From the NCBI GenBank assembly GCA_017859745.1, contig JAFMML010000008.1, positions 7,027 through 71,026 on the forward strand: 64,000 bases of DNA, written 5' to 3'. This DNA is from Planctomycetota bacterium (GTDB lineage: Bacteria > Planctomycetota > Phycisphaerae > Phycisphaerales > SM1A02). The notes beneath the pieces were generated by a model. That model searched no databases, was not told where the DNA came from, and saw only the letters and a list, made by a program, of their open reading frames with translations. A program made the translations under genes and the position numbers. Of the stretch, positions 17,272 to 33,260 are shown piece after piece (position 1 is the stretch's first letter; each line of letters opens with the position of its first letter).

Positions 17272-18795
17272 TCAATCATCTGATCGCTCCATCTCGGGAT
17301 CGCGCGGGCGGCCTCGCCGTCTCAACAGTTCGAGGCCCCATCGCAACTGGCCCCTCTCGAAGACCGCAACGAACGTGCTCCATCCAGCGAGGAAGATCGA
17401 CAGGCCGATCACGCCGTCAGCAAGATCGATGTTCGCGGAACTGGGCCAGTGTCCCCAGAACCACACTGCAAGGACGCCGGTGGCCAAGGCCAGAATCCCC
17501 GGGCCGAGCCACCGGAGCATCGACATCGGGCGAACCCCGATCAGGCGCAAGGCCGAACACTGGATCGTCACGCCGATCAATGCCCGCTGCACGGCGACCA
17601 GCCACACCAACGCCGCCAGATCCTCGCCGAAGATCGAGGCGCCTACGAACACCACTGCGATCAAGGATGCGCCGTCCACGGCGTTCAGCACCGCGACCCG
17701 AACCCATCGCGCGTGGACCTCCATCAGCGCGAACCCAACCGGCGACGCGGCCCTGACCGCGGTGGAGAGTGCCACCGCCTGAACGACCACGATGGACTCG
17801 TCCCAACGCCCGTCCCAGACCAGATGCACCAGAGCGGGCGAGAGGAGTGCCAGCGCTGCGCAGACGGGCGGGAGCAGCAGATTGACCGTGCCGATTGCGC
17901 GGCGTGCCGCCGCACGCAGTCGAACGGGATCGTCTCCGACCCCCGTCAGGCCCGGCAGCAGGACGGATCGGAACGACGCCATGAAGAGCTGCATCGAGGC
18001 CACGGCCAACTGGAAGCCGAAGAAGTAGACGCCCAACACCTTCGGGGCAGCGATCGTGAGCGCGAGGTAGTCGCCCCGTCCGGCGAGCGTCAGCGCCGTG
18101 TTCGCGGCGACGATCCATCGCGTCGATCGCAGGACGTCCAACACCGAATCGGCACGACCGTCGCAGGCAGGCTTCGGCAGAGTCTTCGCCTGTCGCGCAA
18201 GCAAGGCCCACTCCACGGGCAGACTCGCAACGAGTGGGATCACGAACGCGAACGCTCCCAGGCCCGACAGCGCCAGCACCACCGACAGCACACCGCGAAA
18301 CACGATCGCCACGACCTCGGTCCGTGCGACGGTCCCGAATCGCATGGCATGCCGAAGGCGAGTTCTCAGCATGGATACCGGCGTCCGCGTCGCAGCGTGG
18401 ACCGCCATCACACCGAGAACACCGGCCAGCACCGCATCGCCTCGCCACCACCATGCCCACGCCGCGATCCCCAGCACCGCCAGACCCGCGAGGCCGTTGG
18501 CGAGGTACGCGATGCGGGTCGACGCAGCGATCACGCGGCCGTACGAATCTCCGCTACGAAGCAGAAACCGTTCGGCACCCCCGTCGAGCAGCGCCGCCGC
18601 AACCAGATTCAAACCCAGAGCCGCGGCATAGATGGCGAAGTCCTCGGGGACGAGGACCCAGCCGAGCACCACCTGGACCCCCATCCCGACCGCCTTGCCC
18701 GCCATCGCTCCGGCCATGACCCACGCCGCTCCAAAGGCGACCTGCCGACCGATCGAGGCCTTGGGCGCCGAAGCTTCGGTGGGTGATGTGGACAT
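17272..18795 (-). CDS. wzx: polysaccharide flippase (Wzx / PST family)
   Basis: 507 aa with about 12-14 hydrophobic segments. The N-terminus is typical of PST-family polysaccharide biosynthesis proteins, and the gene sits in a glycan locus. Confidence 0.65.
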   Translation of the reverse strand: MSTSPTEASAPKASIGRQVAFGAAWVMAGAMAGKAVGMGVQVVLGWVLVPEDFAIYAAALGLNLVAAALLDGGAERFLLRSGDSYGRVIAASTRIAYLANGLAGLAVLGIAAWAWWWRGDAVLAGVLGVMAVHAATRTPVSMLRTRLRHAMRFGTVARTEVVAIVFRGVLSVVLALSGLGAFAFVIPLVASLPVEWALLARQAKTLPKPACDGRADSVLDVLRSTRWIVAANTALTLAGRGDYLALTIAAPKVLGVYFFGFQLAVASMQLFMASFRSVLLPGLTGVGDDPVRLRAAARRAIGTVNLLLPPVCAALALLSPALVHLVWDGRWDESIVVVQAVALSTAVRAASPVGFALMEVHARWVRVAVLNAVDGASLIAVVFVGASIFGEDLAALVWLVAVQRALIGVTIQCSALRLIGVRPMSMLRWLGPGILALATGVLAVWFWGHWPSSANIDLADGVIGLSIFLAGWSTFVAVFERGQLRWGLELLRRRGRPRDPEMERSDD

Positions 18796-19069
18796 CGATG
18801 GCGACGCTGCAGGAGGAGAGTTCTCGGACGCAGGGCAGGGACTTGCAACCCCGCCAAGTTGGATATCGGATGAACACCCCGCACGGCGGAGGGGCTCGAT
18901 CGGTTTTCATCGAGTTGTCGGCACCACCAGCGGATTTCGCCGACGTTCCCGTCGACGCGGCCCGCGGACGAGGTCGATCATCTCCGACGACTCGCAGCGA
19001 CGGCGAGCACCGCATTCTCTCCGGACCGAACCGCCACCACGACCGGGCCGTCGGGCCGAACTCGAACCC

Positions 19070-19972
19070 ATGCGACCACCCCCGATCCTCGACTGGTTCG
19101 CGAAGCGATGCCTGCCGCCGGCAGTCGCTCGCCGCGCCAAGCTGATCGCCTCGGTGCCGAGGTACCACCTTCACCGGCGGGCCTGTCGTCGTGGGTGGCT
19201 CGCACATGGCGATCGCTATCCGCACCACCTGCTGTTCGTGGCGGGACTTCCGAAGTCGGGGACCACCTGGGTCGAACGGATGCTCTCGAGCGTTCCGGGA
19301 TTCGGCTCCCTCCTGATCCCAGAGGTCAATCGCCACGAGTTGGATCATGGCGAGAGCCACACCTTCGAACTGCCGGACGACTTCGCCTCCCGGTTCGACC
19401 GCATGCTCGTGATCACCAAGATGCATGTGCATGGGTCGATCCACAACTGCCGCGTGCTCGGCGACGGAGACGTCCCGTATGCGATCGTCCATCGAGATCT
19501 CCGGGACGTGGCGATCAGTCACATCCACTACGTCCGCAGCACTCCGTGGCACCCCGAGCATCGGGACTACGCGAACCTCGACATCGAACGAGGCCTGAGA
19601 CACTTCGGCGAGACCCTGCTCTCGCCCTACGCCGACTGGGTGCGCAGCTGGCACCGGCACCGCGATCCCGCCATCAGCACGATCGTGGCCTACGAGGAGA
19701 TGCTTCACGATCCATCGAAGGCGCTGACGCGAATCGTCGAGACCTTTCGCCTTCCGCTCGATCGGGACCGGATCGAAGAGATCGTCGCCGCGCACGACTT
19801 CACCCGGATGAGCGGCGGGCGCCGTCCTGGCGAGGAGCGCGCCGACGCCTTCGTGCGCAGCGGAACGGCCGGAGGCTGGCGCCGTCACTTCACGCCGGAA
19901 CTCGAGTCCCGCTATCGAGAAGTGCTTGGGCGGTTTCCCACCGACCTCGGTCTGCCGCCGTTGGACTGGTGA
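19070..19972 (+). CDS. PAPS-dependent sulfotransferase
   Basis: 5'-PSB loop LPKSGTTW and 3'-PB motif VHRDLRDVAIS. The start was set at ATG 19070, because the upstream part of the ORF is antisense to wzx. Confidence 0.75.
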   Translation: MRPPPILDWFAKRCLPPAVARRAKLIASVPRYHLHRRACRRGWLAHGDRYPHHLLFVAGLPKSGTTWVERMLSSVPGFGSLLIPEVNRHELDHGESHTFELPDDFASRFDRMLVITKMHVHGSIHNCRVLGDGDVPYAIVHRDLRDVAISHIHYVRSTPWHPEHRDYANLDIERGLRHFGETLLSPYADWVRSWHRHRDPAISTIVAYEEMLHDPSKALTRIVETFRLPLDRDRIEEIVAAHDFTRMSGGRRPGEERADAFVRSGTAGGWRRHFTPELESRYREVLGRFPTDLGLPPLDW

Positions 19973-20086: not shown

Positions 20087-23000
20087 TCAGGGACCCTGTT
20101 CGCCCGGTTCGGAAAGCAACGCCTCGATCTCGGCCTTGACCTCTCCCAGGCGCTGGTAGACGTGCTCCGAGGTGGCGAGGTCGAGTTCGACCTTCAATTG
20201 TGGATCGGACCAGACGGCGGGTTCGACGCCGCCGAGGAAGTCGTAGGTGAAGGCGAATCGCGCCTCCGCCTGAAGCACCCCGAGGGTCTCCGCGGAGGTC
20301 GCCGCACGAGTCCAGTAGGACAGACCCGTCCAGAACGCCACACCGGTTGCGCCCATCTCCACGAGCGGACGCACCTGATCGCGAAGCAACTCCTCGAGCG
20401 TCATCTGCTTCATGTTGTATTCGATGGTGCCGACCTTCCAGAACATGGGGCTGACCATCGGGACGATCTCCTTCGGCTCGCCGCCGTTGGCGGTGTTGAA
20501 CCGATTGCACAGCTCCATCTGGTAGCGGCGGAACGCGGTCTCCCGCGCGGTCACCGAGTTCCAGGACGACTCGCCGAAGAGGGCGAGTTCGTATCGGTCG
20601 TAGACGCTGGGGTTGATCCAGTCCATCTCGCGAAGAACCGGCGTGTAGTTCGCAAGCGTCGAGGACAGCTCGGCCTCCTTGGCCTCCTCGGTGGCATTCG
20701 CCCAGTTGCTGTTGTTGAACCAGTAACGGAGGCGAGGCATGCCGTACATCGACCACTGCACCATGGGAAACTCCGATCGCACCGTCTGCAGCAGGTTGAC
20801 GATGGTGTCGACGGTCAGCTGGTAGTTGGGATCGGCCGGACCGGCCTGCAGCCGATCGAGGAACGGATTCTCGAAGTCGAGGATGCCGTAGCCGCTGGGG
20901 CTGTCGCCGTGCTTGCTTCGAATCGCCTCGACGACCAGGGCCGCGTCGATCACACCGGTCGAGGACGCGTTGGGATCGACTCCCTCGTAGATGATGATGT
21001 ACGGCAGATGGCCCTGCTCGATCGCCAGATCGTGGAACGTCGCGTCGGGAAGCGGATCGAACATGAGCTTCGCGCTCGTGGAGGGCCGCGGGTTCACGGG
21101 ATCGACGAGCACGGTTCGGAAGACCGCACGAAGGTTGGTCCCGTTGGGGACGCCCATCTGCGATGCGGCCAGTTCCGTCGACAGGGTTCCCGAAGTGGAG
21201 GACCCGGTCGCGTAGGGGGTGAATCGGAAGACGTCGCTCCGACCGGCGCCGAAGGAGCCCGCGGAGACGTTGCCCTTCGAGGACATGAGCAGCGATCCGT
21301 CGGCATCGGCGAAGACCGCGTCGAGCTTCTCGTTGTTGTTGGAGAAGCCGACGTCCGATCCGTCGAAGTGCATCGACCACGCGCCCGCCGTCGCCTGACC
21401 CAACGAGGACGGGACGAACCGCATCAGGTCCTGACCCTTGAAGGGCGGCACTCCGGGAAGGGAACCTCCGTTCTGCGTGGCGATCAGCAGGGATCCATCG
21501 GCCATCGCGGAGACGGCGGCGATCGCCTGATCTCCGCTGCTCGAGAGGCCGACATCCGAACCGTCGAAGTGGAAGTGCCACATGCCGGCGGTGACCTCGC
21601 CGAGCTGGTCTGGCGAGAATCGAACAAGGTCGTAGGCGTCGACGGTGCTGCCGTTGGGACCTCCCACGAGACCCCCGACGACTCCGCCACCTTCGATCGC
21701 CATGAGCAGTTCCCCGCTCTCCAGCACCGATGCGGCCGCGATGGTCAGACCACTCAGGCCGACATCGTCTCCGTCGAAGAAGACGTTCCACGACCCCGTC
21801 GCGGAATTGAACGCCGCAAGATCGCATCCGTCGACGACCAGATCGCCCGGCAGTGTGGTCGCGCCGCCGAACGACCCCACCAGAAGCGGCACCGGCATGC
21901 AGGGCTCGCACAAGGCCGCAGCGTTCGCAACGCAGTTCTCGTCCCACACCGTCGAGCAGCAGAGCGGATCGACCGAACACACCAGTTCGCAGCAGGCCCC
22001 GTCCGCGCAATATGGCGTGTCGTGAACGGTGCAGCAGTCTCCCGCGGTCTGGTCCCCGCACGCCGACGGGGGATTGACGCCGCCGCCACCGCCACCGCCG
22101 CCGCCATCCCCGGGGCGCTCGCCGACCGGCCAGGAGAAGGTCACCATGGCGAAGGCAGCGACGTTGTCGCCGTTGGAGAGGCCCGAGGCCGTGCCGTCGA
22201 ACCAGTCGTAGAAGACTCCGCTGCTTGCAGACCCGAGGGAACTCGGCGTGAAGCCCATCAGGTCCCCACGACCCGCGGACACGCCCGGCACAGAGGCGTT
22301 GCCTCTGGTCGAGATCAGCAGATCGCCCGTCGCGGTCGTGCCGATCGCATCGATCGCCTCGTTGTTGTGACTCAGGCCAACGTCGGATCCATCGAGATGA
22401 ACCGACCACGAGCCCGCGGTCGCAGCACCCAGCGAGGAGGGTGCGAAGTGCACGAGGTCCTGCTTCGCGAAGGAGCCGACGCCCGGAAGCGAACCTCCGC
22501 CTTCGAAGGACATGATCAGAGAGCCGTCGTCGAGAGCGGCCACGGCGGAGATCGACATTCCGCCCGATAGACCGACATCGGATCCGTCGAACAGGAACGA
22601 GAGCGTGCCGGCGGTGTAGCGCCCGACCGTCTCGGGCGTGAATCGAACGAGGTCCACCGCGTCGACGGCTCCGCCCGCGGGCCCGTCGGCGAGGTCGGCG
22701 ACGAATCCGCCTCCGGCGATCGCAAGGACCAGGTCCCCGTTCGCCAGCGCAGCGACCGCCGAGATCGACGCGCCGCCGAGGCCGATCGCATCTCCATCGA
22801 GAAACAGGCTCCATGAACCGGTCGCATCGTCGTACGCCGCCAGATCGCCCCCACCGATCGCAAGCCCGCCCGGGAGCCCGGCGGCGCCGCCGAAGCCCAT
22901 GACCGCACGGGTGATCGGCTCGCAGCCTCCGCAGAGTTCGCCCGCATTGCCGGCGCAGTACTCGTCCCATCCGACGTCGCAGCAGTAGGGATCGGCGTTG

Positions 23001-23182
23001 CAGACGAGCGTGCAGCACGCCTCATCGCTGCACCCGATGCCCGAGTGGGGCTGGCAGCAGTCGCCCGCGCCCGGATCGCCGCACTGGGCCTGAACGGCGA
23101 CGGTGGCCAGTCCCGACATCAGCATGGCGAAGCACGAACACACACGCGAACGAACGACGGTTCCAGGTCGAAGACGGGGCAT
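20087..23182 (-). CDS. secreted modular protein: 2 x (12-Cys module + 4 repeats) + C-terminal GH56-like (hyaluronidase-like) TIM-barrel domain
   Basis: Signal peptide MPRLRPGTVVRSRVCSCFAMLMSGLATVAVQAQ. An internal duplication is separated by a Gly9 run. The C-terminal domain carries GYGILDFENPF, WSMYGMPRLRYW, NPSVYDRY and GATGVAFWTG. The CDS itself is secure; the family assignment is inference. Confidence 0.65.
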   Translation of the reverse strand: MPRLRPGTVVRSRVCSCFAMLMSGLATVAVQAQCGDPGAGDCCQPHSGIGCSDEACCTLVCNADPYCCDVGWDEYCAGNAGELCGGCEPITRAVMGFGGAAGLPGGLAIGGGDLAAYDDATGSWSLFLDGDAIGLGGASISAVAALANGDLVLAIAGGGFVADLADGPAGGAVDAVDLVRFTPETVGRYTAGTLSFLFDGSDVGLSGGMSISAVAALDDGSLIMSFEGGGSLPGVGSFAKQDLVHFAPSSLGAATAGSWSVHLDGSDVGLSHNNEAIDAIGTTATGDLLISTRGNASVPGVSAGRGDLMGFTPSSLGSASSGVFYDWFDGTASGLSNGDNVAAFAMVTFSWPVGERPGDGGGGGGGGGVNPPSACGDQTAGDCCTVHDTPYCADGACCELVCSVDPLCCSTVWDENCVANAAALCEPCMPVPLLVGSFGGATTLPGDLVVDGCDLAAFNSATGSWNVFFDGDDVGLSGLTIAAASVLESGELLMAIEGGGVVGGLVGGPNGSTVDAYDLVRFSPDQLGEVTAGMWHFHFDGSDVGLSSSGDQAIAAVSAMADGSLLIATQNGGSLPGVPPFKGQDLMRFVPSSLGQATAGAWSMHFDGSDVGFSNNNEKLDAVFADADGSLLMSSKGNVSAGSFGAGRSDVFRFTPYATGSSTSGTLSTELAASQMGVPNGTNLRAVFRTVLVDPVNPRPSTSAKLMFDPLPDATFHDLAIEQGHLPYIIIYEGVDPNASSTGVIDAALVVEAIRSKHGDSPSGYGILDFENPFLDRLQAGPADPNYQLTVDTIVNLLQTVRSEFPMVQWSMYGMPRLRYWFNNSNWANATEEAKEAELSSTLANYTPVLREMDWINPSVYDRYELALFGESSWNSVTARETAFRRYQMELCNRFNTANGGEPKEIVPMVSPMFWKVGTIEYNMKQMTLEELLRDQVRPLVEMGATGVAFWTGLSYWTRAATSAETLGVLQAEARFAFTYDFLGGVEPAVWSDPQLKVELDLATSEHVYQRLGEVKAEIEALLSEPGEQGP

Positions 23183-23390
23183 GTCGACGCGACTCCTGTG
23201 ACTTGAGGGTGGCCGGCACATCACAGCGCCGACGGTCCAAGGGAGAATCGCATCGATTCGGGGCACGACACGCCGGGCATGTTCCCCAACCGCGCCTGCA
23301 GAAGGTGGTCCCGCTGCCAGTGGTGACCCCAAACGACGAACGCCCCGCCGAAGCGGGGCGCTCGTGATCAGTTGGATTCCGACGAGTCGA

Positions 23391-24494
23391 TCAGGGGCAG
23401 ACACCCCAGTTCGCAAGCAGGATCGACAGGTCCGCGGCATCGACCACGCCGCTGTTGTTGAGATCCGCCGACACCGGAACGCCGATCGGCGAGAAGCCCC
23501 AGTAGCCGATCATGATGCTGATGTCGGACCCGTTGACGTCGCCATCGTTGTTGATGTCGCCCTGGCACCCCGTGCACAGGACGTTCTTGCCGATGTCCTC
23601 GTACTGCCCGGAGATCGCGTCGGGGAAGTTGCCGCAGATCTCGGTGTTCGAGAGGGCCAGATCGCTGAAGCCGGGACGCACCCAGATGCCTCCGCCGGTG
23701 ACGGCCACGTTGCTGGTCACGCTGCAGCCGGTGACGACCATGCCGTCTCCGAAGCTGTTCCACGTGAAGCCGCCGCCGGTCGCCGCGGTGTTGTTCGCGA
23801 AGACGCAGTCGACGACGACCGGAGTGCCGCGAGTGAAGTGGACGCCTCCACCGAAGGATTGCGGAGCCCGGTTCAGGGTGAAGGTGCATCCGGTGAAGAG
23901 GACTCCTCCTCCCCAGCACTGGGCGCCACCACCGTCGGTGTTCGCGTAGTTGTCGTGGAAGACCGTTCCGGAGACCTCGGAGAAGCTCTCGCGGAAGTAC
24001 GCACCACCGCCGAAGCCGGACTGGTTCTCGGTGACGATGCAGTCGACGATGGTCGGCGACGACTGGTCGACGTACATGCCGCCACCGAACGTGTAGAAGG
24101 GAAGCGGCTCGTAGATGGTGCCGACGATCCCGTTGGTGATCGTGAAGCCTTCCAGGATGGTGTCCGGGCCTTCCCCGCTGACGGCGGTCACCACCGATGC
24201 CTTGGCACCGGTGCCATCGATGGTCGTGGCTGCGGCCCCGTCGGAGGATCGAACGACGATCGCCTTGCCGAGGAAGTCGATCGACTCGGTGTAGACGCCA
24301 GGAGCGACGAGGACCACGTCGCCACCCACCGCAGCGTCGATCGCCGACTGGATGGTGGGGTAGTCCCCCGGGACATCGATGGTCGTACCCGCGGTGGCGA
24401 TCCCGCCAGCGGCGAGAAGCGAGGCGACACCCGCACCAACAAGAAGCGATCGGGACTTGCTGGACATGGTGGACATGGTGGACATGCTGGACAT
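23391..24494 (-). CDS. secreted right-handed beta-helix protein with C-terminal dockerin-type repeats
   Basis: Signal/TM segment LLVGAGVASLLAAGGIATA, repeated GGG-containing beta-helix turns (GGGMYV, GGGAYF, GGGVLF, GGGVHF, GGGFTW, GGGIWV), and C-terminal GDINNDGDVNGSDISIMIGYWG and ADLNNSGVVDAADLSILLANWG. Confidence 0.7.
   Translation of the reverse strand: MSSMSTMSTMSSKSRSLLVGAGVASLLAAGGIATAGTTIDVPGDYPTIQSAIDAAVGGDVVLVAPGVYTESIDFLGKAIVVRSSDGAAATTIDGTGAKASVVTAVSGEGPDTILEGFTITNGIVGTIYEPLPFYTFGGGMYVDQSSPTIVDCIVTENQSGFGGGAYFRESFSEVSGTVFHDNYANTDGGGAQCWGGGVLFTGCTFTLNRAPQSFGGGVHFTRGTPVVVDCVFANNTAATGGGFTWNSFGDGMVVTGCSVTSNVAVTGGGIWVRPGFSDLALSNTEICGNFPDAISGQYEDIGKNVLCTGCQGDINNDGDVNGSDISIMIGYWGFSPIGVPVSADLNNSGVVDAADLSILLANWGVCP
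24459..24494 (-). repeat. 4 x 9-bp tandem repeat (ATGTCCASC) at the very start of the beta-helix gene
   Basis: The coding strand reads ATGTCCAGC ATGTCCACC ATGTCCACC ATGTCCAGC (MSS MST MST MSS), giving four in-frame ATGs. Confidence 0.9.
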
Positions 24495-24745
24495 GGTCTT
24501 CTCCTGAATCAATCTCGACGGGAGTCCGTCGGCGGCCCCCTTGGGAATGGTGTAACCCTCGCTCGCCGGTTGCACAAGCACCCGCGAGCGAAGATGCGCA
24601 GGGTTCGGGACTTCTCCCCACGCCGAACCCCCTCGGTCGTTCACCGACTGCGCGCAAACCGATGGCGTCCAAGGAGCTCCTCGGCGGCCGAGGGCATCCC
24701 GGCACTCGGCGCCCGGTGTCGATCCTCCACGACCGATAACCCGGT

Positions 24746-26095
24746 TCAGGTGGCGACGGGCACGGGCGAGTCCTCCACTCCACCCTCGGCGACCTCGTCC
24801 TCGTACTCGAAGTCGTGGTCCTCCATGAGGACCTCTCTCGACTCGTACTCGCGGCAGGTCCGCGCAAGCATGATCGCGAAGGTGTAGAGCAGGGGGTTGC
24901 CGAGCATGTTGCCCTGCTTGTTGGCCAGGATGAAGTGGTAGATGAGCAGGCCCAGCAGCACGCAGACGTTCGCTCTCGCCACCGGATCGTGTCGGACCAT
25001 CCGCTCGAAGCGGAAGCCGGTCCGAACGACCGTATAGATGATGAACATCAGCAGCGAGAAGCCGATCAGGCCGCCTTCGCCGAGAGCGTCGGCCAGCAGC
25101 ACGTGGGTGTAGTGGACGCCGGACCGACTCTCGACCGAGGCGAATCCGTACAGGCCCAGTCCCTGCAGCCAGTGGGTCGGCGACTCGGCGTAGGCCGCGA
25201 GCAGGTCCACGCAGTTCTCGACGCGTTCCGAACCGCCGAACGCGAGACTCTCGACCGCCCAGCGACGGTCGTTGTCCTGGGTGACGAAGGCATCGACGGC
25301 GAACATCAGTCCGCCGGCGAACAGCACACCCGCCAGCGCCGTCAGTCCGAGGCCGCGTGCCGAGAGCGCCCGGAAGTTGATCGGAACCATCGCGAGGATG
25401 GCGATGACCGCACCGATCAGCTGGCCGCGAGATCCCGAAAGCAGCGCCAGACCCGCACCGACGACCACCGCCGCGGAGCGGATTCCGATGGACGTCAGGC
25501 CCGGCCTCACCAGCAGGGTCAGAGCCCCCATCAGCATGACGTTGCCGCCGAGCGTTCCGAGTTCCAGCGGATTGCCCCTGTTGTCGGACCCGTAGGCGAT
25601 GCCGAGCCGCGCCGCATTGAGATCGACGTTCGGGCTCACGATGAGCAGACCCGCGATCACGAGACCGGCGATCATGGTGGCGCCGATGAGGCTTCCGACG
25701 TCCTCGATGCGCCAGATCAGCATCGGCGCGAGGATCAGGAAGAGGGGCCAGTACGGCAGGGCCCTGACGGTCTCCAGCTGGAACGCCCACTCCGTGCGGC
25801 TCCAGAGGCCGGAGGTGTATCCCCACGCGAAGAACGCGAGGCAGGCCAGGCATGTCGGGGTGAACAGGTTCCGGAAGAGCGGCTGACCCGACATGGTGCG
25901 CCGCACCACCGCCCAGACCAGCAGGCCCGCGACCATTCCGTTCAGGAGCACCGGGCGATCCACGAAGATCGCCGCGGACGCCTGCAGCAGCACCTCCAGC
26001 GGATACATCACCACCAGCGCCGTGACCGCCCAGATCGGCGACCACAGCGCCATGACCAGCAGTGCGGCGAGCGCGATCAGCGGAAGGCGAGCCAT
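24746..26095 (-). CDS. wzy: O-antigen polymerase/ligase-family membrane protein (Wzy-like)
   Basis: 449 aa with about 10-12 TM segments and a large loop. The layout is typical of Wzy_C/O-antigen ligase family proteins, and the gene is positioned in a Wzx/Wzy-type locus. Confidence 0.6.
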   Translation of the reverse strand: MARLPLIALAALLVMALWSPIWAVTALVVMYPLEVLLQASAAIFVDRPVLLNGMVAGLLVWAVVRRTMSGQPLFRNLFTPTCLACLAFFAWGYTSGLWSRTEWAFQLETVRALPYWPLFLILAPMLIWRIEDVGSLIGATMIAGLVIAGLLIVSPNVDLNAARLGIAYGSDNRGNPLELGTLGGNVMLMGALTLLVRPGLTSIGIRSAAVVVGAGLALLSGSRGQLIGAVIAILAMVPINFRALSARGLGLTALAGVLFAGGLMFAVDAFVTQDNDRRWAVESLAFGGSERVENCVDLLAAYAESPTHWLQGLGLYGFASVESRSGVHYTHVLLADALGEGGLIGFSLLMFIIYTVVRTGFRFERMVRHDPVARANVCVLLGLLIYHFILANKQGNMLGNPLLYTFAIMLARTCREYESREVLMEDHDFEYEDEVAEGGVEDSPVPVAT

Positions 26096-26163: not shown

Positions 26164-29100
26164 TCAGGAGTCCGGGACGCCCGCCAGACGGGTTGCGAGG
26201 ATCGACTGGGCCTCGAGGCGGCCGATCTGCACGGTCTCGCCGACGCGCTCGGACACGCGGGCCTCGAGTTCGCTTCGGATCGAGTCGTCGACCCAGGCCT
26301 CGGGGGCGTCGTCGAGGAAGTCGTTCGCCATGGCGACACGGGCCTCCTGCTGCAGCACTCCCAGATCGTCCGACGACGTCACCGCGTGGGTCCAGTAGTT
26401 GAAGCCGGTCCAGAACGCGATGCCGTCCGCACCCGCCTCCATCACCGGCCGGACCTGATCGCGGAGCAGCTCCTCGGCGGTCATGTACTTCATGTTGTAT
26501 TCGATCTGCCCGACCTTGAAGAAGAGCGGGCTGACCATCGGGATGATCGGCTTGTCCGGGCCGGCGTGACCTTCGTTGAACCGCCGACACAGTTCGACGG
26601 TGTACTCGCGCCACGACGTCTCGCGATCGGTCCACATCTGCCACGAGGGCTGGTTCTGCCGCTCGAGCTCGTATCGGTCGTAGACGCTGGGGTTCATCCA
26701 GTCGCAACGCTCGAGCACCGGAGTGAACGCCTCGAGGGCCGCCTCGAGAAGCTCCTCGCGATCGGGATCGTCCGCCGTCGCCCAGCCATAGGAACCCGGA
26801 GGCCCCCAGTACTTGATGCGCGGCATGCCGTACATGGTCCACTTCACGTTGGGGAACTCCGCACGGACCCGATCGAGCAGCGCGACGATCGTGTTCACCG
26901 TCGACTGGTAGTGCGGATCCGAGGGGCCCGCCGAGATCCGCTCGAAGAACGGATTCTCGAAGTCGAGGATGCCGTAACCGCTCGGCGAGTCGCCGTGCTT
27001 GGTCCGGATGTGCTGCACCACGCGGTCGGCGTCGATCTGGCCGGTCGTCCGGGCATCGGGGTCGACCGCCTCGTAGACGATGAGGTACTGCTCGATGCCG
27101 TCGGCCTGCAGCCCGGCGACGACCGTGTCGCTCGGAAGGCCGTCGTAGAGCACCGTCACCGTCGAGTTCTGGTTCGGCGGAGTCGGCTCGCCATCGCCGC
27201 CGTCGCCGATGGGAATGGTCGGATCGACCGACGGGGGCGTGCCATCGGGTGTGGTGCCGGTCTCGGACTCGCCGGCGTCGTCGCCGTCGGACCCGGTCGA
27301 ATCGGCATCCGCGGCATCGGGATCCCCGCCGTCCGAACCACCGCCGGCGGGATCTCCACCCGGAGCGGCGTTGCCGGTCTGCGAGGACAGATGGATCGCC
27401 AGATCCGCGCCGTCGATCACGCCGTTTCCGTCGAGATCACCGTACGCCGTGTCGGTCCATCCACCGTCCGACACGGCTCCATCGGCATCGACGGACGTGA
27501 AGTTGCGCTGCCGCAGGCGAAGCTTCGGCTTCGATCGACTGCCGCGAGAGGGAGACGTCGAGACGTTTGCGGGCGCCGTGCCGAAGCCGCCATCTCCAGC
27601 GAGTCGGATCGCCAGGTCGGCGCCATCGACGAACCCATCGCCGTTCAGATCTCCGCCGTTCATGCGGGGATCGGTGCCGGAGTAGTCGTCCTCTTCGAAG
27701 CCGTAGTCCGTCCATTCCGCCTCGGCCCCTCCCGAGAGCCAGATGGCCTGGTCCGCGCCGTCGATCACCCCGTCGCCGTTGAGATCCTGGTTGGTGAAGC
27801 CGAGTCCGCCGTCCGCGAACGCGGCATCCGAAGGATCGACTCCGAACGAGGCACCGTCGTTCGGCGAGGACGAGTCGGCGGTGCGAAGCGTCGGACCGGA
27901 AGTCCTCTTGCCCCCAGGCACCAGACCGCCTCCGGTCGCCGCGGGACCGGCGAACTCGCCCTCGTCTCGAGTGGCGAACTCCGGGAACTCGGACGCGACC
28001 GCGGCATCGTGCACCAGCCACCCGCCCGACTGTCCGGCATCGCGACGGACGATGGTCGAGTCGCCGTCGACCGACACGGCCAGCTGCGTGAACCCGGGGG
28101 CGAAGGTGATTCGCCAGACCATTTCACCGTCGGCCGCGCCCACGCCGGTGGCGAAGAATCCGCTGCCGCTTCGGGACTCCCACGACGAGCGGGCCGATGC
28201 GAAGAACGCACCCGCCCACTCCTCCGCGGCGGTCTGCTCGAGAATGCCGTCGAAGCGAACGCCATCCTGGGGATCGGCCGTCCCGCGATCCTCGACGTAG
28301 AGCACCGCACCGTCGCCGATCAGAATCGCGTGCCGCACGAGTTCATCCCACATCGACGTGCCGACCACGAACGAGCGTCGCTCGCTCGAACCGGGATGCG
28401 AGAAGGGGATCACGCGAGGCAGGACCGCCGTGCCGCCACTCCGCCGCGTCACCGCGGACTCGATCTGGTCCCGAAGCTCGTCGAAGGACGTGGCCGCAAA
28501 TCCCGCCGTCGTGCTGCGGACCCCAAGCTCCATCGACCACGAACCCGTGGTCGGGCCGTCGCCAGCGGGAGCCGAGACCACCACCATGTCCGGCGAGGCC
28601 TTGCGAAGACCTTCCGCCGAACGCTCCACCGCCTGGGCGAGGGTGGCGTCGGCGAACTCGTTCCAGAGATCCCACTGATCGCTCGATGGCGTCATCGCGC
28701 CCTGGAGCGTCAGTGAACCGGGGCGAACGTCGTCGAATCGAGAGTCGTTGCGAATGGCGATCCACACGAGATCGTCGGGCGTGTCCAGCACCGCCGCCGA
28801 GATCGGGCTCTCGCCCTCGACCAGCAGCAGGTCGACCGACTGCGAGGACGCCGCGAGTCGCTTTGCCAGCGCCGAGAGCTCCTCGGTTGCCGCGGAGATT
28901 CCGCCGTCGAGCCAAGGGCCCGAGTGGTCGGTGATGTGCCCAGCGACCACGACGTGGTCGCTGGGATCCTGAGACAGCGTCGTCAACAGCGACCGCGTCG
29001 CGAGACCCCGACGACCGGCGGGCATCGAGGCGAACCGGGTCTCGATCGTCGCGACGTCCGAATCCTCGATCACCAGCAGCGGGGCGAATCGCGACGACTC

Positions 29101-29223
29101 GAATCCGGTGTCACCCAGCACCCAGGCGAAGACCGACTCCTGCTCGGAGGAGGTCTCAACCGCGTTCGGCTGAGCGGGGAACAGGAGCGAAGCGAGGCAG
29201 AGCGAGGCAAGTGGGGTCCACAT
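26164..29223 (-). CDS. secreted protein: unknown N-terminal domain + 3 dockerin/EF-hand-like repeats + C-terminal GH56-like domain (paralog of 20087-23182)
   Basis: Signal peptide MWTPLASLCLASLLFPAQP. Repeats DLNGDGVIDGADQAIWL, DLNGDGFVDGADLAIRL and DLDGNGVIDGADLAIHL. C-terminal GYGILDFENPF, WTMYGMPRIKYW, NPSVYDRY and GADGIAFWTG. Confidence 0.65.
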   Translation of the reverse strand: MWTPLASLCLASLLFPAQPNAVETSSEQESVFAWVLGDTGFESSRFAPLLVIEDSDVATIETRFASMPAGRRGLATRSLLTTLSQDPSDHVVVAGHITDHSGPWLDGGISAATEELSALAKRLAASSQSVDLLLVEGESPISAAVLDTPDDLVWIAIRNDSRFDDVRPGSLTLQGAMTPSSDQWDLWNEFADATLAQAVERSAEGLRKASPDMVVVSAPAGDGPTTGSWSMELGVRSTTAGFAATSFDELRDQIESAVTRRSGGTAVLPRVIPFSHPGSSERRSFVVGTSMWDELVRHAILIGDGAVLYVEDRGTADPQDGVRFDGILEQTAAEEWAGAFFASARSSWESRSGSGFFATGVGAADGEMVWRITFAPGFTQLAVSVDGDSTIVRRDAGQSGGWLVHDAAVASEFPEFATRDEGEFAGPAATGGGLVPGGKRTSGPTLRTADSSSPNDGASFGVDPSDAAFADGGLGFTNQDLNGDGVIDGADQAIWLSGGAEAEWTDYGFEEDDYSGTDPRMNGGDLNGDGFVDGADLAIRLAGDGGFGTAPANVSTSPSRGSRSKPKLRLRQRNFTSVDADGAVSDGGWTDTAYGDLDGNGVIDGADLAIHLSSQTGNAAPGGDPAGGGSDGGDPDAADADSTGSDGDDAGESETGTTPDGTPPSVDPTIPIGDGGDGEPTPPNQNSTVTVLYDGLPSDTVVAGLQADGIEQYLIVYEAVDPDARTTGQIDADRVVQHIRTKHGDSPSGYGILDFENPFFERISAGPSDPHYQSTVNTIVALLDRVRAEFPNVKWTMYGMPRIKYWGPPGSYGWATADDPDREELLEAALEAFTPVLERCDWMNPSVYDRYELERQNQPSWQMWTDRETSWREYTVELCRRFNEGHAGPDKPIIPMVSPLFFKVGQIEYNMKYMTAEELLRDQVRPVMEAGADGIAFWTGFNYWTHAVTSSDDLGVLQQEARVAMANDFLDDAPEAWVDDSIRSELEARVSERVGETVQIGRLEAQSILATRLAGVPDS

Positions 29224-29650
29224 GACGACGAACTCCAGTGGCGGGATCGAACCGTAGCTTGACCGGGTGACCGCCTCCGAACGGAGGCTGCCGCCCAACG
29301 GGGTTGAGATCGGCTCGTCCCATCCGCCTGATGAGGGGATCCGCTCGGGAAACGACTCCTCCCGACCGGACCGCGTGATCCTTCGCAACCTGGCGGGACG
29401 AGTACGGGCCGGACGACCCGGCCTAGGACCGAGAATCGAATCGAACCACGTCGACGGGACCTTCCTTGTTCGCGAAGGGGGTCCCGATGACCGATCGAAC
29501 CACCTCGCGTCCGAGATTCTGCAACCGACAGATCGTCCGCTCCACCTGCAAGTCGCCCTCACGGTCGCTCGCCGGCTCGTAGGATCCTCCTGTTCCCCAA
29601 CCCCGGTGCAGGCGTCTCCCGACGCCACTCCGAAGTCCCTCCCGTCCAGC

Positions 29651-30916
29651 ATGTCCCATCGCCAGCGAAGAGGCATCCTCGTTTCCGGCGGCTACTCCTG
29701 CGCCAATCGCGGCGACTGGGCGCTCGGAGCCTCGGCGGTGCAGGCGATCCAGCGCAGCGATCTCGAGTCCCCAACGCTTCTGCAGGTGTTCGAACCGACC
29801 GACGACGTGCCGATCGAGGAGCGGTGCGAGACCATCGCCATGTGGCCGTCGTGGCGCAAGCGGTGGCATCGCGTGGGCAGCCTGGGCAGCCGGAACCGGT
29901 ACTACCGCCTTCAGATCGCCGACATGCGCCGGCATCTAGACGACGCTCGGCGTCGCCTCGAGGGGAAGGGCGCGCAGGGCACCCCGATCCTCTGGATCTG
30001 CGGCGGCGGCGTCATGAACGACGTGGCGAGTCACGGTCCCTTCACGGCGCGCCTTGGAACGATCGCGGCCGAGGAGGGCTGGGAGGTCCTGATGACCGGT
30101 CAGACCATCGGCCCGGTCCGCACCCCGAGGTTTCGCGAAGGCCTCGAGGCGTTCCTGCGAAGCTGCCGGTGGATCGGCGTTCGCGATGTCGACAGTCTCG
30201 AGCAGCTGCAGGCCATGGACGGGCTGAGCGCCGAGCCGGTCCGCAGGCTCGACGACGTGTTCTACATGCGTCCAATCGCCTCGGGATTCGCCGATCCGGA
30301 CCGCTATCAGCGGTCGACCGGCATGCCGCCTCCCGCCACGCCCTTCGTGCTGCTGACCCTGCACGCGCAAGGCGGAACTTCGGCGCCGATCGGCTGGCCC
30401 GAGGTCTCCCGAACCATCGAGGAGATCGAACGAACCGGGCGGCGCGTGGTGCTGGTCAACTTCGCCGGCCACGCCACGCCCGAGGATCGCGACATGGCCG
30501 CGCTGCGATCGGCGCATCCAGACGTCGCCCTGCTGCCGTGGAGCACCGACGTGCCGTCGCTGCGCGAACTGGCGGCCAGTGCCGATCTGGTCGTCTCCAC
30601 CCGCTTCCACGGACTCGTCTTCGCCCTGCACGCCGGCACGCCCGCGGTCACCACCCACGCCGGCAGCTACTACCGAACCAAGACATGGCGTCTGATGGAG
30701 GAGTGGGGTCTGGAGCGGTTCGCCGCCGACGTCTCCGAGGGATGGTCCGAGGTGCCGGGCCTGGTGCGAGAGGCGCTGGGCTCGCTCGAGGAGATGCGCG
30801 AGGTCGTCCGACTTCGCCGCCCCGACGAGATCGGCACGCTCCAACCGATGCTCGTCGCACATCTCCACGCCGCCGAACGCGAGGATCCGATCGTCCCGAC
30901 GGGAGGCTCGACGTGA
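29651..30916 (+). CDS. polysaccharide pyruvyl transferase family protein
   Basis: N-terminal GILVSGGYSCANRGDWALG (compare the CsaB/WcaK GNLGD motif) and C-terminal STRFHGLVFAL. The start was set at ATG 29651. Confidence 0.7.
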   Translation: MSHRQRRGILVSGGYSCANRGDWALGASAVQAIQRSDLESPTLLQVFEPTDDVPIEERCETIAMWPSWRKRWHRVGSLGSRNRYYRLQIADMRRHLDDARRRLEGKGAQGTPILWICGGGVMNDVASHGPFTARLGTIAAEEGWEVLMTGQTIGPVRTPRFREGLEAFLRSCRWIGVRDVDSLEQLQAMDGLSAEPVRRLDDVFYMRPIASGFADPDRYQRSTGMPPPATPFVLLTLHAQGGTSAPIGWPEVSRTIEEIERTGRRVVLVNFAGHATPEDRDMAALRSAHPDVALLPWSTDVPSLRELAASADLVVSTRFHGLVFALHAGTPAVTTHAGSYYRTKTWRLMEEWGLERFAADVSEGWSEVPGLVREALGSLEEMREVVRLRRPDEIGTLQPMLVAHLHAAEREDPIVPTGGST

Positions 30917-31935
30917 GGATCGGACTGCTGCTCCCCGCCGCCATGGCCGTCGACGGCCGCGGCAACGGCATCCGCGCCCAGGCGATCCACCAGATGGAGG
31001 CCCTGCGCCGACTCGGGCACGACGTCGTCCCGATGCAGCCCTGGGAGGAGTACGACTCGGCGTCCTTCGACGTGGTGCACTTCCTCCTCGGCGGTCCTTC
31101 CGTGCACGGCCTCGCCGCCCGCCGCAGGGTCAGTCTGCGGATGCTCTCCTTCGCGCCGATCATCGACACCAACGAGTCCTTCTCGCGCTACCGCCTGGCC
31201 GCGCGACTCGGCGGCCTGACCCCGAAGGTCTTCACGATTCCGGGCATGTACCGCGAGCAGGCCATGGCAAGCGACCTCGTGGTCTGCCGAAGTCGTCACG
31301 AGCGCGACCGGATGGTGAAGGGCCTCGGCATCGACGACGCGAAGTGCCGCATCGTGCTCAACGGCGTCGACCCGCCACCACCGGCGGACGGCGATCGAGC
31401 TCGACGCAAGTTCGGACTCGACGGGGACTTCCTTCTGCACGTCGGTGCGTTCACGCAGGCTCGGAAGAACGCGGTGCGCCTGGCCGAGGCGGCGATCGCG
31501 GCGGAGCGCCCGCTGGTCATCGCCGGCCGCAGCGATCCGGGCGCAACCAGAAGCCGCCTCGACGAACTCGCCGCACGATCCGGTGGCCTGATTCGAATCC
31601 TGGAGTTCCTCGAGCGCCGGGACCTCGAGGACCTCTACGCGGCGTGCCGGGTGTTCTGCCTGCCCAGCGTGCACGAGGGCACCGGGCTCGTCGCCCTCGA
31701 GGCGGCCGCCCACGGCGCGGGCGTCGTCGTGACCCGCCACGGCGGGCCGCCCGACTACTTCGGCGAGGACGCTCGATACGTCGATCCCGCCAGTCGCGAG
31801 GACATCGCCAGGGCGATCTCGGAGGCATGGGAAGATCCCCGCGGAGACCGCCTCCGCCAACACGTCGCCGGCCTCACCTGGGAGGCTTCGGCGCGATCGC
31901 TGGTCGAGGCGTTCGAATCGCGGCGACCGAGCTGA
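30913..31935 (+). CDS. glycosyltransferase family 4
   Basis: The GTG overlaps the upstream stop (GTGA) and GGGAGG lies 6 nt upstream. GT-B C-terminal motif VFCLPSVHEGTGLVALEAAAHGAGVVVT. Confidence 0.7.
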   Translation: MRIGLLLPAAMAVDGRGNGIRAQAIHQMEALRRLGHDVVPMQPWEEYDSASFDVVHFLLGGPSVHGLAARRRVSLRMLSFAPIIDTNESFSRYRLAARLGGLTPKVFTIPGMYREQAMASDLVVCRSRHERDRMVKGLGIDDAKCRIVLNGVDPPPPADGDRARRKFGLDGDFLLHVGAFTQARKNAVRLAEAAIAAERPLVIAGRSDPGATRSRLDELAARSGGLIRILEFLERRDLEDLYAACRVFCLPSVHEGTGLVALEAAAHGAGVVVTRHGGPPDYFGEDARYVDPASREDIARAISEAWEDPRGDRLRQHVAGLTWEASARSLVEAFESRRPS

Positions 31936-31965
31936 CGTCGTCGACCGACGCCGCGTCGAGCGGTG

Positions 31966-33027: not shown

Positions 33028-33260
33028 CGGTGGTGTTCCGCAGGTGGCGGTGGGGTCGTCCTACAGCGTAGATCTCCCCGGGGCGTCGATCGCGTCTATC
33101 GGCCATCGCCCGCGGTTTCGCCGATCCGATCGCCGGTTCGAGGGCGATCCGACCATCGATCCGCGAATCGAATCGATCCCGGCGGCGTTCTCGCAGATCA
33201 GGATGAACCCGACGGCACCGGTCGCCGATAATCCCCATCCGGGATTCGGACCCTTCGCCC

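What the first reader, a model, noticed from the sequence alone, without database searches (positions are those of the whole stretch)
21113..23083. Internal duplication: two copies of a 54-aa, 12-cysteine module, each followed by four ~60-aa repeats
Cysteine modules:
- Residues 34-87 read CGDPGAGDCCQPHSGIGCSDEACCTLVCNADPYCCDVGWDEYCAGNAGELCGGC.
- Residues 375-428 read CGDQTAGDCCTVHDTPYCADGACCELVCSVDPLCCSTVWDENCVANAAALCEPC.
- Cys spacing is identical in both (positions 1, 9, 10, 18, 23, 24, 28, 34, 35, 43, 51, 54).

Repeats and linker:
- Each module is followed by four repeats of the type DLVRF(T/S/V)P..LG..TAG.W...FDGSDVGLS....I.AV....DGSLL.
- The two ~300-aa units are joined by a Gly9 linker (nt ~22070-22100).

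I cannot assign either element to a named family. The repeat number and length would fit a small propeller or lectin-like binding unit that targets the catalytic domain to a glycan.
Basis: seen in the sequence. Interest (0 to 1): 0.6.

Follow-up and report, generated by a model that had tools for sequence, protein, structure and literature searches.

The report
Duplicated cysteine-knot plus four-bladed propeller cassette
A secreted Phycisphaerales protein carries two copies of a cassette, a small disulfide-rich module fused to a four-bladed beta-propeller-like domain, ahead of a hyaluronidase-like barrel; both parts belong to uncharacterised families and most likely bind or anchor rather than catalyse.

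Summary
Gene 20087..23182 (-) encodes a 1031-aa secreted protein. Residues 34-365 and 375-706 are 52% identical over 326 aa (E 8e-108). Both start with a 54-aa module whose 12 Cys have identical spacing, and a Gly9 linker joins them.

- **Repeat region.** AlphaFold2 (pLDDT 94.5, pTM 0.89) predicts a three-helix Cys module followed by four ~65-aa blades. An N-terminal strand appears to complete the last blade. Foldseek finds only propeller-class hits (Kelch, designer propellers) at TM ≤0.38, so no solved structure is close.
- **Propeller unit.** It belongs to a large family with no Pfam model: 3,022 cluster representatives in Planctomycetota, Chloroflexota and Cyanobacteria. It is usually C-terminal and sits beside proteases, nucleases, phosphoesterases and other enzymes.
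- **Cys module.** It is restricted to one Phycisphaerales family (23 of 25 genomes, 0 of 16 other genomes of the order). It is expanded to 48 copies in this genome and up to 103 elsewhere. Only faint Pfam DUF8252 hits track it.
- **C-terminal domain.** It folds like GH56 hyaluronidases.

Best reading: two non-catalytic binding or anchoring cassettes tether a glycanase. The ligand is untested. This is a new domain family within a known fold class, of moderate interest.

The parts
23084..23182 (-). Sec-type signal peptide (residues 1-33, MPRLRPGTVVRSRVCSCFAMLMSGLATVAVQAQ); probable start codon at 23180-23182
   Evidence: Read from the sequence: basic n-region, hydrophobic core, AVQA-Q. AGGAG lies 10 nt upstream. 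Orthologue lengths 1009-1068 aa.
22922..23083 (-). Cys module 1 (residues 34-87): 12 Cys, predicted as three short helices
   Evidence: Profile A3 matches it at E 1.5e-19.
22850..22921 (-). Unit 1 N-terminal closing segment (residues 88-111): strand RAVMGFG plus a small hairpin, resembling the strand D and hairpin tail of a blade
   Evidence: DSSP of the model; sequence resemblance to blade tails.
22655..22849 (-). Unit 1 blade 1 (residues 112-176); lacks the P..LG insert
22457..22654 (-). Unit 1 blade 2 (residues 177-242): DLVRFTPETVGRYTAGTLSFLFDGSDVGLS...
22262..22456 (-). Unit 1 blade 3 (residues 243-307)
22112..22261 (-). Unit 1 blade 4 (residues 308-357): truncated, three strands only
22061..22111 (-). 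Inter-unit linker (residues 358-374), including Gly9 at residues 360-368 (nt 22079-22105)
   Evidence: A poly-Gly linker is present in most orthologues shown, with variable length (about 5-10 Gly; roughly 30 residues of Gly-rich sequence in the contig C140 paralogue); it is absent in P0019 and P0020. pLDDT falls to 46-74 here.
21899..22060 (-). Cys module 2 (residues 375-428)
   Evidence: Profile A3 matches it at E 5.7e-21.
21083..21898 (-). Unit 2 propeller-like domain (residues 429-700). Closing segment 429-452 (21827-21898); blade 1 453-517 (21632-21826); blade 2 518-585 (21428-21631); blade 3 586-650 (21233-21427); blade 4 651-700 (21083-21232)
   Evidence: Equivalent blades are 52-59% identical to unit 1, the truncated fourth blades 32%.
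20090..21082 (-). C-terminal domain (residues 701-1031): predicted (beta/alpha) barrel with invariant LDFE(N)PF. Best structural matches are GH56 hyaluronidases. Stop codon at 20087-20089
   Evidence: AlphaFold2 pLDDT 92.9. The top six Foldseek hits are all GH56, E 1.5e-8 to 1.3e-5, TM about 0.4-0.57. Invariant D769 and E771 in alignment A4.

Best explanation
The stretch encodes the non-catalytic two-thirds of a secreted, multidomain protein of an uncultured Phycisphaerales bacterium.

**Architecture.** After a Sec signal peptide come two copies of a two-domain cassette.
- The first domain is a 54-aa, helix-rich module locked by disulfides. It has ten invariant Cys plus a facultative pair.
- The second is a ~270-aa beta-propeller-like domain of four ~65-aa blades. 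Each blade has two long strands, a one-turn helix at the 'DVGL' of the FDGSDVGL motif, two shorter strands and a small hairpin.
- The Cys module runs into the propeller with almost no linker. The segment right after it appears to supply the missing outer strand of blade 4, a 'Velcro' closure.
- A flexible poly-Gly linker joins the two cassettes. They precede a (beta/alpha) barrel with a DxE motif that folds like GH56 hyaluronidases.

**Shown here.** The duplication; the repeat structure; the confident fold prediction; the propeller-class similarity; the two very different phyletic distributions; and the age of the duplication (unit 1 groups with unit 1 and unit 2 with unit 2 across orthologues).

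**Inferred.** The cassettes are binding or anchoring modules. They would hold the hydrolase on a polymer, most likely a glycan of the cell surface or extracellular matrix. Two copies on a flexible tether would give avidity. The Cys module would act as a rigid, protease-resistant cap or spacer for an extracellular, oxidising environment. The ligand is unknown.
For: **Duplication and repeats.**

**Structure.**
- AlphaFold2 pLDDT 94.5, pTM 0.89. DSSP shows three helices followed by 4 x (A-B-helix-C-D-hairpin).
- All 50 listed Foldseek PDB hits (97 at E <=1e-3) are Kelch domains or Kelch-derived designer propellers.
- The BFVD hits are largely Kelch, PQQ, WD and RCC1 propeller proteins, mixed with collagen-repeat and unnamed proteins.
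- A single-blade profile gives only summed weak WD40 matches.

**The unit stands alone.**
- 3,022 cluster representatives at E <=1e-3 and 1,228 at E <=1e-30.
- In 146 non-orthologous proteins with a full unit, 88 carry it within 12 aa of the C-terminus, and most have one copy.

**Accessory-module behaviour.** The unit is fused to S8 subtilases, endonuclease I, metallophosphoesterases, matrixins, polysaccharide deacetylases, GDSL lipases and SdiA-regulated domains, with PKD and cadherin-like spacers.

**Four-fold conservation.** One invariant Asp opens each blade (D81, D145, D210, D275 of the model) and the FDGSD motif is near-invariant. This pattern suits repeated ion or ligand sites rather than a single active site.

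**The Cys module is a mobile extracellular module.**
- 48 copies in 16 large ORFs of this genome, including one array of 17.
- Its partners are subtilase, dockerin-like, beta-helix, LamG and FG-GAP domains.
- Cys columns 12 and 56 co-occur: 53 copies have both, 21 neither, 25 only one. This suggests an optional sixth disulfide.

**Recurring pairing.** In other phyla a different Cys-rich segment (Dicty_CTDC-like) often sits directly before the propeller unit. A disulfide-rich module followed by this propeller is therefore a recurring arrangement.

**Catalytic partner and context.**
- The C-terminal domain has a GH56-like fold.
- The gene lies among a Wzx-like flippase, a sulfotransferase, a Wzy-like polymerase, a pyruvyl transferase and GDP-sugar genes.
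Against: - No binding was measured. No ligand site could be inspected, because model coordinates and PAE were not available.
- Ring closure and the four-blade geometry rest on secondary structure, the repeat count and a high pTM.
- TM-scores to solved propellers are low (<=0.38).
- The exopolysaccharide-locus context is not conserved. Orthologues P0017 and P0022 sit among unrelated genes.
- The acidic 'EDIDA' motif that is common in the wider family survives only in blade 3 of each unit here. If it forms the ligand or Ca2+ site, this protein's units may bind weakly or differently.
- No known carbohydrate-binding-module profile matches.
Confidence: 0.55

Rival explanations
1. Substrate-specific carbohydrate-binding module. 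Each cassette would be a lectin for the same glycan that the GH56-like domain cleaves, for example the sulfated or pyruvylated exopolysaccharide made by the surrounding locus. It would raise the enzyme's local substrate concentration.
For: - Multi-bladed propellers are a common lectin scaffold (general knowledge).
- The partner domain is glycanase-like.
- The gene lies in a polysaccharide biosynthesis locus.
- A double-unit relative (P0020) carries a weak beta-helix match instead.
Against: - The same propeller unit accompanies proteases, nucleases and phosphoesterases in other lineages.
- Locus synteny is not conserved.
- No carbohydrate-binding-module profile hit.
Confidence: 0.2
2. Protein-protein interaction or oligomerisation domain, analogous to the four-bladed hemopexin domain of matrix metalloproteinases or to Kelch domains. 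It would recruit protein substrates or partners, or assemble the enzyme on a surface-layer protein.
For: - The blade count is four, and some family members combine the unit with a matrixin catalytic domain (PF00413).
- The best Foldseek hits are Kelch peptide-binding domains.
- One invariant Asp opens each blade. From memory, this recalls the central-channel ion sites of hemopexin domains.
Against: - No Hemopexin or Kelch Pfam match at E <=1.
- No hemopexin structure among the 50 listed Foldseek hits.
- Blades are about 65 aa, against about 45-50 aa in hemopexin.
Confidence: 0.12
3. Inert spacer or stalk. The cassettes would only project the catalytic domain away from the cell and resist proteolysis, with no specific ligand.
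For: - The Cys module occurs in arrays of up to 17-18 copies in other proteins, as is typical of stalk repeats.
- Flexible poly-Gly linkers separate the cassettes.
Against: - Propeller motifs are strongly conserved across phyla (invariant Asp and the FDGSD motif).
- The unit usually sits at the extreme C-terminus. That position is not a spacer position.
Confidence: 0.08
4. The propeller unit is itself an enzyme or a secretion or sorting domain, for example a C-terminal export or attachment signal.
For: - It is C-terminal in 60% of non-orthologous members.
- Many enzymes use propeller folds (general knowledge).
Against: - In this protein the units are N-terminal and internal.
- Conservation is four-fold repeated rather than a single site.
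- At about 255 aa the unit is much larger than known C-terminal sorting domains.
Confidence: 0.05

Closest known systems
Hemopexin-like four-bladed beta-propellers (Pfam PF00045; matrix metalloproteinase C-terminal domains, vitronectin)
   Same: - Four blades.
- An accessory, non-catalytic domain attached to secreted hydrolases.
- Some members of this family even follow a matrixin domain.
- A conserved Asp opens each blade.
   Different: - No sequence-profile match.
- Not among the 50 listed Foldseek hits.
- Blades are about 65 aa, with two long strands, a one-turn helix and an extra hairpin.
- The family is bacterial, and often preceded by Cys-rich modules.
Kelch-type six-bladed propellers (KEAP1, KLHL proteins, SAKe designer proteins)
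   Same: - Best Foldseek matches (E 3e-6 to 1e-4, probability 1.00).
- Blades are four-stranded antiparallel meanders.
   Different: - TM only 0.26-0.38 and rmsd 8-12 Å.
- Six blades against four.
- No Kelch Pfam hit.
Pfam DUF8252 (PF26780)
   Same: Precomputed hits to this family occur on 16 of 22 proteins with the Cys module and on 0 of 98 without it. They also occur on 12 of 13 proteins found through the module.
   Different: - The hits are flagged 'faint'.
- The model is not in the local Pfam copy, so membership could not be scored.
- The family has no known function, and no paper mentions it.
Dicty_CTDC-type Cys-rich repeats (PF00526)
   Same: A disulfide-rich extracellular module that, in other phyla, sits directly upstream of the same propeller unit.
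   Different: - The Cys pattern is different (a 24-aa CxxC-type repeat).
- It does not match the 54-aa module.
- In one protein of this genome it lies next to the module rather than on it.
GH56 hyaluronidases (for the C-terminal partner domain)
   Same: - The top six Foldseek hits are all GH56.
- A DxE motif (LDFEN) is invariant in all 17 relatives.
   Different: - No Pfam Glyco_hydro_56 or PDB profile match.
- About 12-16% identity.
- Bacterial and rare: 22 relatives found.

Membership tests
Beta-propeller fold class | Tandem repeats, each forming a four-stranded antiparallel blade | tested here: met
   Four repeats per unit. DSSP shows four main strands per repeat. All 50 listed Foldseek PDB hits are Kelch-type propellers; the BFVD hits are largely propeller proteins. 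PMC3797127 gives the definition: four to twelve blades.
Beta-propeller fold class | Blades arranged in a closed ring, often with N/C-terminal 'Velcro' strand exchange | tested here: inconclusive
   Blade 4 has only three strands, and the N-terminal segment resembles a blade tail. pTM is 0.89. Coordinates and PAE were not available, and TM to solved propellers is <=0.38.
Hemopexin-like repeat (PF00045) | Match to the hemopexin repeat profile | tested here: not met
   No Pfam family at E <=1 for the whole protein, nor for 10 other family members.
Hemopexin-like repeat (PF00045) | Four blades | tested here: met
   Four repeats per unit.
Kelch repeat (PF01344) / WD40 | Profile match and six to seven blades | tested here: not met
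   No Pfam hit. The blade profile gives only summed matches of about 3 bits per repeat to highly repetitive WD40 proteins. Blade number is four.
Pfam DUF8252 (PF26780) | Score above the family's gathering threshold on the Cys module | tested here: inconclusive
   The model is absent from the local Pfam copy. Precomputed hits track the module but are flagged faint.
Known Cys-rich modules in Pfam-A (granulin, EGF, PSI, hevein/CBM18, Dicty_CTDC and others) | Profile match to the 54-aa module | tested here: not met
   No Pfam or NCBIfam hit at E <=1. Profile A3 gives no PDB sequence match at E <=10.
Carbohydrate-binding modules (CAZy CBM families represented in Pfam) | Profile match to a CBM family, or demonstrated glycan binding | tested here: not met
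   No CBM profile hit on P0001. Glycan binding cannot be tested with these tools.
GH56 (C-terminal domain) | Distorted (beta/alpha) barrel fold of GH56 | tested here: met
   Foldseek hits 1-6 are all GH56 hyaluronidases, E 1.5e-8 to 1.3e-5, TM 0.41-0.57. The next hits are generic barrels at E >=6e-4.
GH56 (C-terminal domain) | Sequence-profile membership (Pfam Glyco_hydro_56) | tested here: not met
   No hit at E <=1. Profile A4 against PDB gives no GH56 hit.
GH56 (C-terminal domain) | Catalytic Asp-x-Glu motif | tested here: inconclusive
   LDFE is invariant in 17 relatives. Structural superposition of this motif on the GH56 catalytic Glu could not be inspected.

The most novel reading that the evidence does not exclude
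The 'FDGSDVGL' unit defines a previously undescribed, widespread family of four-bladed beta-propellers with large blades. It has at least 3,000 clusters at 50% identity across Planctomycetota, Chloroflexota and Cyanobacteria. It would act as a general, possibly Ca2+-dependent, lectin-like retention module that keeps secreted hydrolases on the producer's surface or matrix glycan. That would make it a bacterial functional counterpart of the hemopexin domain of metalloproteinases. Separately, one Phycisphaerales family invented a 10-12-Cys helical knot, expanded it to 50-100 copies per 3-Mb genome, and uses it as the propeller's cap.
Probability: 0.3. Interest if true: 0.6.

Novelty: new variant of a known kind. 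Interest (0 to 1): 0.42.

Why it matters
- Two domain families that are common in environmental bacteria have no functional annotation. The propeller unit alone occurs in thousands of protein clusters, next to proteases, nucleases, phosphatases and glycanases.
- Knowing what the propeller unit binds would show how these bacteria keep extracellular enzymes close to the cell.
- The Cys module is a clear case of a lineage-specific module that expanded massively in small genomes.
- For this gene, the cassettes are the only clue to where a rare bacterial hyaluronidase-like enzyme acts.
- The confident structure prediction gives ready construct boundaries for experiments.

Tried and rejected
**Searches that found nothing**
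- Pfam-A and NCBIfam scans of the whole protein at E <=1.
- phmmer and profile searches against PDB sequences with the whole protein, the Cys-module profile, the unit profile and the C-terminal profile. Only chance-level hits came back: plastocyanin, AhpF, g-type lysozyme.
- Literature searches for FDGSDVGL, PF26780/PF28325, DUF8252, and Phycisphaerae + cysteine-rich + dockerin returned no papers.

**Searches that gave only weak or partial results**
- The single-blade profile against PDB gave summed weak WD40 matches, and GyrA C-terminal domain at E 0.1-1.3. I took this as blade-like sequence, not family membership.
- PF26780 could not be scored locally.
- The search for related loci with the Cys-module alignment failed because no stretch was conserved enough. 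With unit 2 it returned only two loci: a Phycisphaerales MAG and a Rubripirellula MAG.

**Ideas rejected**
- PF26780 as the C-terminal domain. Proteins that share that domain but lack the double cassette have no PF26780 hit.
- PF28325 (Beta_trefoil_fun). It is faint and appears on only 2 of 120 proteins, so I treated it as spurious.
- The two units forming one eight-bladed propeller. Single units are the rule elsewhere, and a single unit models at pTM 0.89.
- A recent duplication. Unit 1 clusters with unit 1 and unit 2 with unit 2 across orthologues.
- Conserved linkage to the exopolysaccharide locus.
Full report
**1. The observation**

The long minus-strand ORF 20087..23440 contains the gene. 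The start that fits the evidence is the ATG at 23180-23182. An AGGAG lies 10 nt upstream, and the gene callers' product and its orthologues are 1009-1068 aa. This gives P0001, 1031 aa.

Both have 12 Cys at identical positions and share 30 of 54 residues.
- The halves 34-365 and 375-706 align without large gaps at 52% identity over 326 aa, E 8e-108. At DNA level they are 69% identical over 561 nt.
- Each half holds four repeats of about 65 aa. Equivalent repeats of the two halves are 52-59% identical, except the truncated fourth repeats (32%). Repeats within a half are 18-45% identical. Pairwise blastp E-values for most tested pairs within a half run from 1e-19 to 4e-6; two pairs involving the truncated fourth repeat are not significant.
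- Repeat 1 lacks the six-residue 'P..LG.' insert, and repeat 4 is truncated.
- The Gly9 run is residues 360-368, nt 22079-22105.

**2. Structure**

I built an alignment of 36 unit sequences (A2) and ran AlphaFold2 on residues 33-364. The model is confident: mean pLDDT 94.5, pTM 0.89.

- *Cys module.* It is predicted as three short helices.
- *Repeats.* Each forms two long strands (DLVRFTPET and TLSFLFDGS), a one-turn helix over DVGL, two shorter strands (ISAVAA and SLIMS) and a small hairpin.
- *Closure.* Blade 4 has only three strands. The segment directly after the Cys module, RAVMGFGGAAGLPGGLAIGGGDL, resembles the tail of a blade, LIMSFEGGGSLPGVGSFAKQDL. It is predicted as a strand plus hairpin. 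This is the usual 'Velcro' closure of propellers. I infer it; I could not inspect coordinates.
- *Foldseek against PDB.* It returns 97 hits at E <=1e-3. All 50 listed are Kelch domains or Kelch-derived designer propellers, but TM is only 0.26-0.38.
- *Foldseek against BFVD.* It gives largely Kelch, PQQ, WD and RCC1 propeller proteins, mixed with collagen-repeat and unnamed proteins, at similar TM.
- *Single-blade profile.* It gives only summed weak matches to very repetitive WD40 proteins.

The domain therefore belongs to the beta-propeller class, which spans four to twelve blades (PMC3797127, abstract). No solved structure is close to it. Hemopexin-type four-bladed propellers are not among the listed hits, and Pfam Hemopexin does not match.

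**3. The two elements have separate histories**

*Propeller unit.*
- A four-sequence profile (A1) finds 3,022 cluster representatives at E <=1e-3 and 1,228 at E <=1e-30 among 1.84 billion.
- A word-seeded search finds 1,905 proteins.
- Named sources include Pirellulales, Novipirellula, Rhodopirellula, Fuerstiella, Caldilineaceae, Anaerolineae, Dehalococcoidia, Leptolyngbyaceae and Synechococcus.
- In this phylum it is patchy: 16 of 201 genomes, with 1-5 copies each.
- Of 146 non-orthologous proteins with a full unit, 94 have one copy. In 88 the unit ends within 12 aa of the C-terminus.
- Partner domains include S8 subtilase, endonuclease I, metallophosphoesterase, matrixin, polysaccharide deacetylase, GDSL and SdiA-regulated domains, plus PKD and cadherin-like spacers.
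- No Pfam family covers the unit. This holds in the local Pfam-A copy and in the precomputed annotations, which include families numbered up to PF28325.

*Cys module.*
- Within the phylum it is confined to one family. It occurs in 23 of 25 genomes of that family and in 0 of 16 genomes of other families of the same order. In an even sample of 201 genomes of the phylum, only the window's own genome and one weak match (E 3e-5) carry it.
- It is strongly expanded. This 3.2-Mb genome has 48 copies in 16 large ORFs, including an array of 17. Relatives reach 76 and 103 copies.
- Its partners are subtilases, dockerin-like C-termini, GBD_T9SS_assoc, beta-helix, LamG and FG-GAP.
- Among 99 distinct copies, ten Cys are at least 96% conserved, with invariant G4, W41, D42 and A49. 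The second Cys of the first doublet (60%) and the last Cys (73%) tend to occur together: 53 copies have both, 21 neither, 25 only one. I read this as an optional sixth disulfide.
- Precomputed faint hits to Pfam PF26780 (DUF8252) track the module. They occur on 16 of 22 proteins with it and 0 of 98 without it, and on 12 of 13. One search gives the family name and the 'faint' flag.
- The model is not in the local library, and no paper mentions it.

*The combination.*
- The cassette of Cys module plus propeller occurs only in the Phycisphaerales orthologue group, P0002-P0024 plus the P0135 and P0142 fragments.
- In other phyla a different Cys-rich segment, Dicty_CTDC-like, often sits directly before the unit. 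A disulfide-rich module in front of this propeller is therefore a recurring design.

**4. Age of the duplication**

- In a maximum-likelihood tree of units, unit 1 sequences group with unit 1 and unit 2 with unit 2 within each orthologue lineage. The duplication therefore predates their divergence.
- Three single-unit proteins (P0022, P0023, P0024) nest inside three different unit-2 clades. This suggests repeated loss of unit 1.
- The poly-Gly linker is present in most orthologues shown, with variable length; P0019 and P0020 lack it.

**5. Partner domain and context**

- Residues 701-1031 model as a (beta/alpha) barrel with pLDDT 92.9.
- The six best Foldseek hits are all GH56 hyaluronidases, E 1.5e-8 to 1.3e-5. 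Generic barrels follow at E >=6e-4.
- LDFE is invariant among 17 relatives.
- Sequence profiles do not detect GH56.
- The domain is rare, with 22 relatives found. One of them is a paralogue in this window (26164..29223, P0239) with a different N-terminal region.
- Neighbouring genes encode a Wzx-like flippase, a sulfotransferase, a beta-helix/dockerin protein, a Wzy-like polymerase, a pyruvyl transferase and GDP-mannose dehydratase/epimerase enzymes.
- This context is not conserved around orthologues P0017 and P0022.

**6. Interpretation**

The evidence points to a binding or anchoring role for the cassettes, not a catalytic one:
- the unit stands alone in most family members;
- it is usually terminal;
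- its enzyme partners are very diverse;
- its conservation is repeated four-fold, with one invariant Asp opening each blade and a near-invariant FDGSD motif;
- the Cys module is extracellular and disulfide-rich.

Two cassettes on a flexible tether would give avidity. Because the partners include proteases and nucleases, a general surface or matrix ligand is more likely than the specific substrate of this hydrolase. The ligand, any Ca2+ dependence and the ring geometry are untested. I put 0.55 on this reading. The rivals are a substrate-specific carbohydrate-binding module, a protein-interaction domain, an inert stalk, and an enzyme or sorting domain.

**7. Novelty**

- The duplication itself is an ordinary cassette duplication.
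- The propeller unit is a new, large domain family within a known fold class, with an unusual blade count and blade size.
- The Cys module is catalogued only as a domain of unknown function, and even that link is faint.
- Earlier first-reader notes on the GH56-like domain and the sulfotransferase agree with what I found independently.

Interest is moderate.

Noticed in passing
window 20090-21082 (-) and 26164-29223 (-): Two paralogous proteins share a rare C-terminal barrel (53% identity). Its only good structural matches are GH56 hyaluronidases, and the LDFE motif is invariant. Only 22 relatives were found in 5.8 billion proteins.
   Followed up: partly
genome contig C144:6868-10971 (locus L011): One ORF of at least 1368 aa, cut by the contig end, carries 17 tandem copies of the same Cys module and no Pfam domain. 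Relatives P0243-P0249 have 16-18 copies.
   Followed up: partly
genome contig C140:2-3280 (locus L001; equals P0006): This is a second protein of the genome with the same double cassette, followed by two further Cys modules. Its inter-unit linker is Gly-rich and about 30 residues long. Its C-terminal part is lost at the contig end, so its catalytic partner is unknown.
   Followed up: partly
P0022, P0023, P0024 (loci L020 and others): These single-cassette versions of the protein (687-698 aa) nest within three different unit-2 clades of the two-cassette orthologues. This suggests recurrent deletion of unit 1, perhaps by recombination between the repeated cassettes.
   Followed up: partly
P0031, P0128, P0207, P0059 and about 20 others: In other phyla the propeller unit is often directly preceded by a different Cys-rich segment of the Dicty_CTDC type (C.DG.FCNG.E.C). 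This parallels the Cys-module plus propeller cassette seen here.
   Followed up: no
window 17275-19969, 23394-26095, 29267-34208: The surrounding genes form a polysaccharide biosynthesis cluster: Polysacc_synt_3 flippase, Sulfotransfer_1, a beta-helix/dockerin protein, a Wzy_C-like polymerase, PS_pyruv_trans, GDP-mannose 4,6-dehydratase and an epimerase/reductase.
   Followed up: partly
L021:4229-10731: In a freshwater metagenome relative, two genes of the same double-cassette architecture (1068 and 1023 aa) lie in tandem, outside any polysaccharide locus.
   Followed up: no
window 26164-29676 (-) versus 29267-30916 (+): The longest ORF of the paralogue (1170 aa) overlaps the pyruvyl-transferase gene on the other strand. 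The gene callers' product is 1019 aa (P0239), so the true start is probably near 29223.
   Followed up: no
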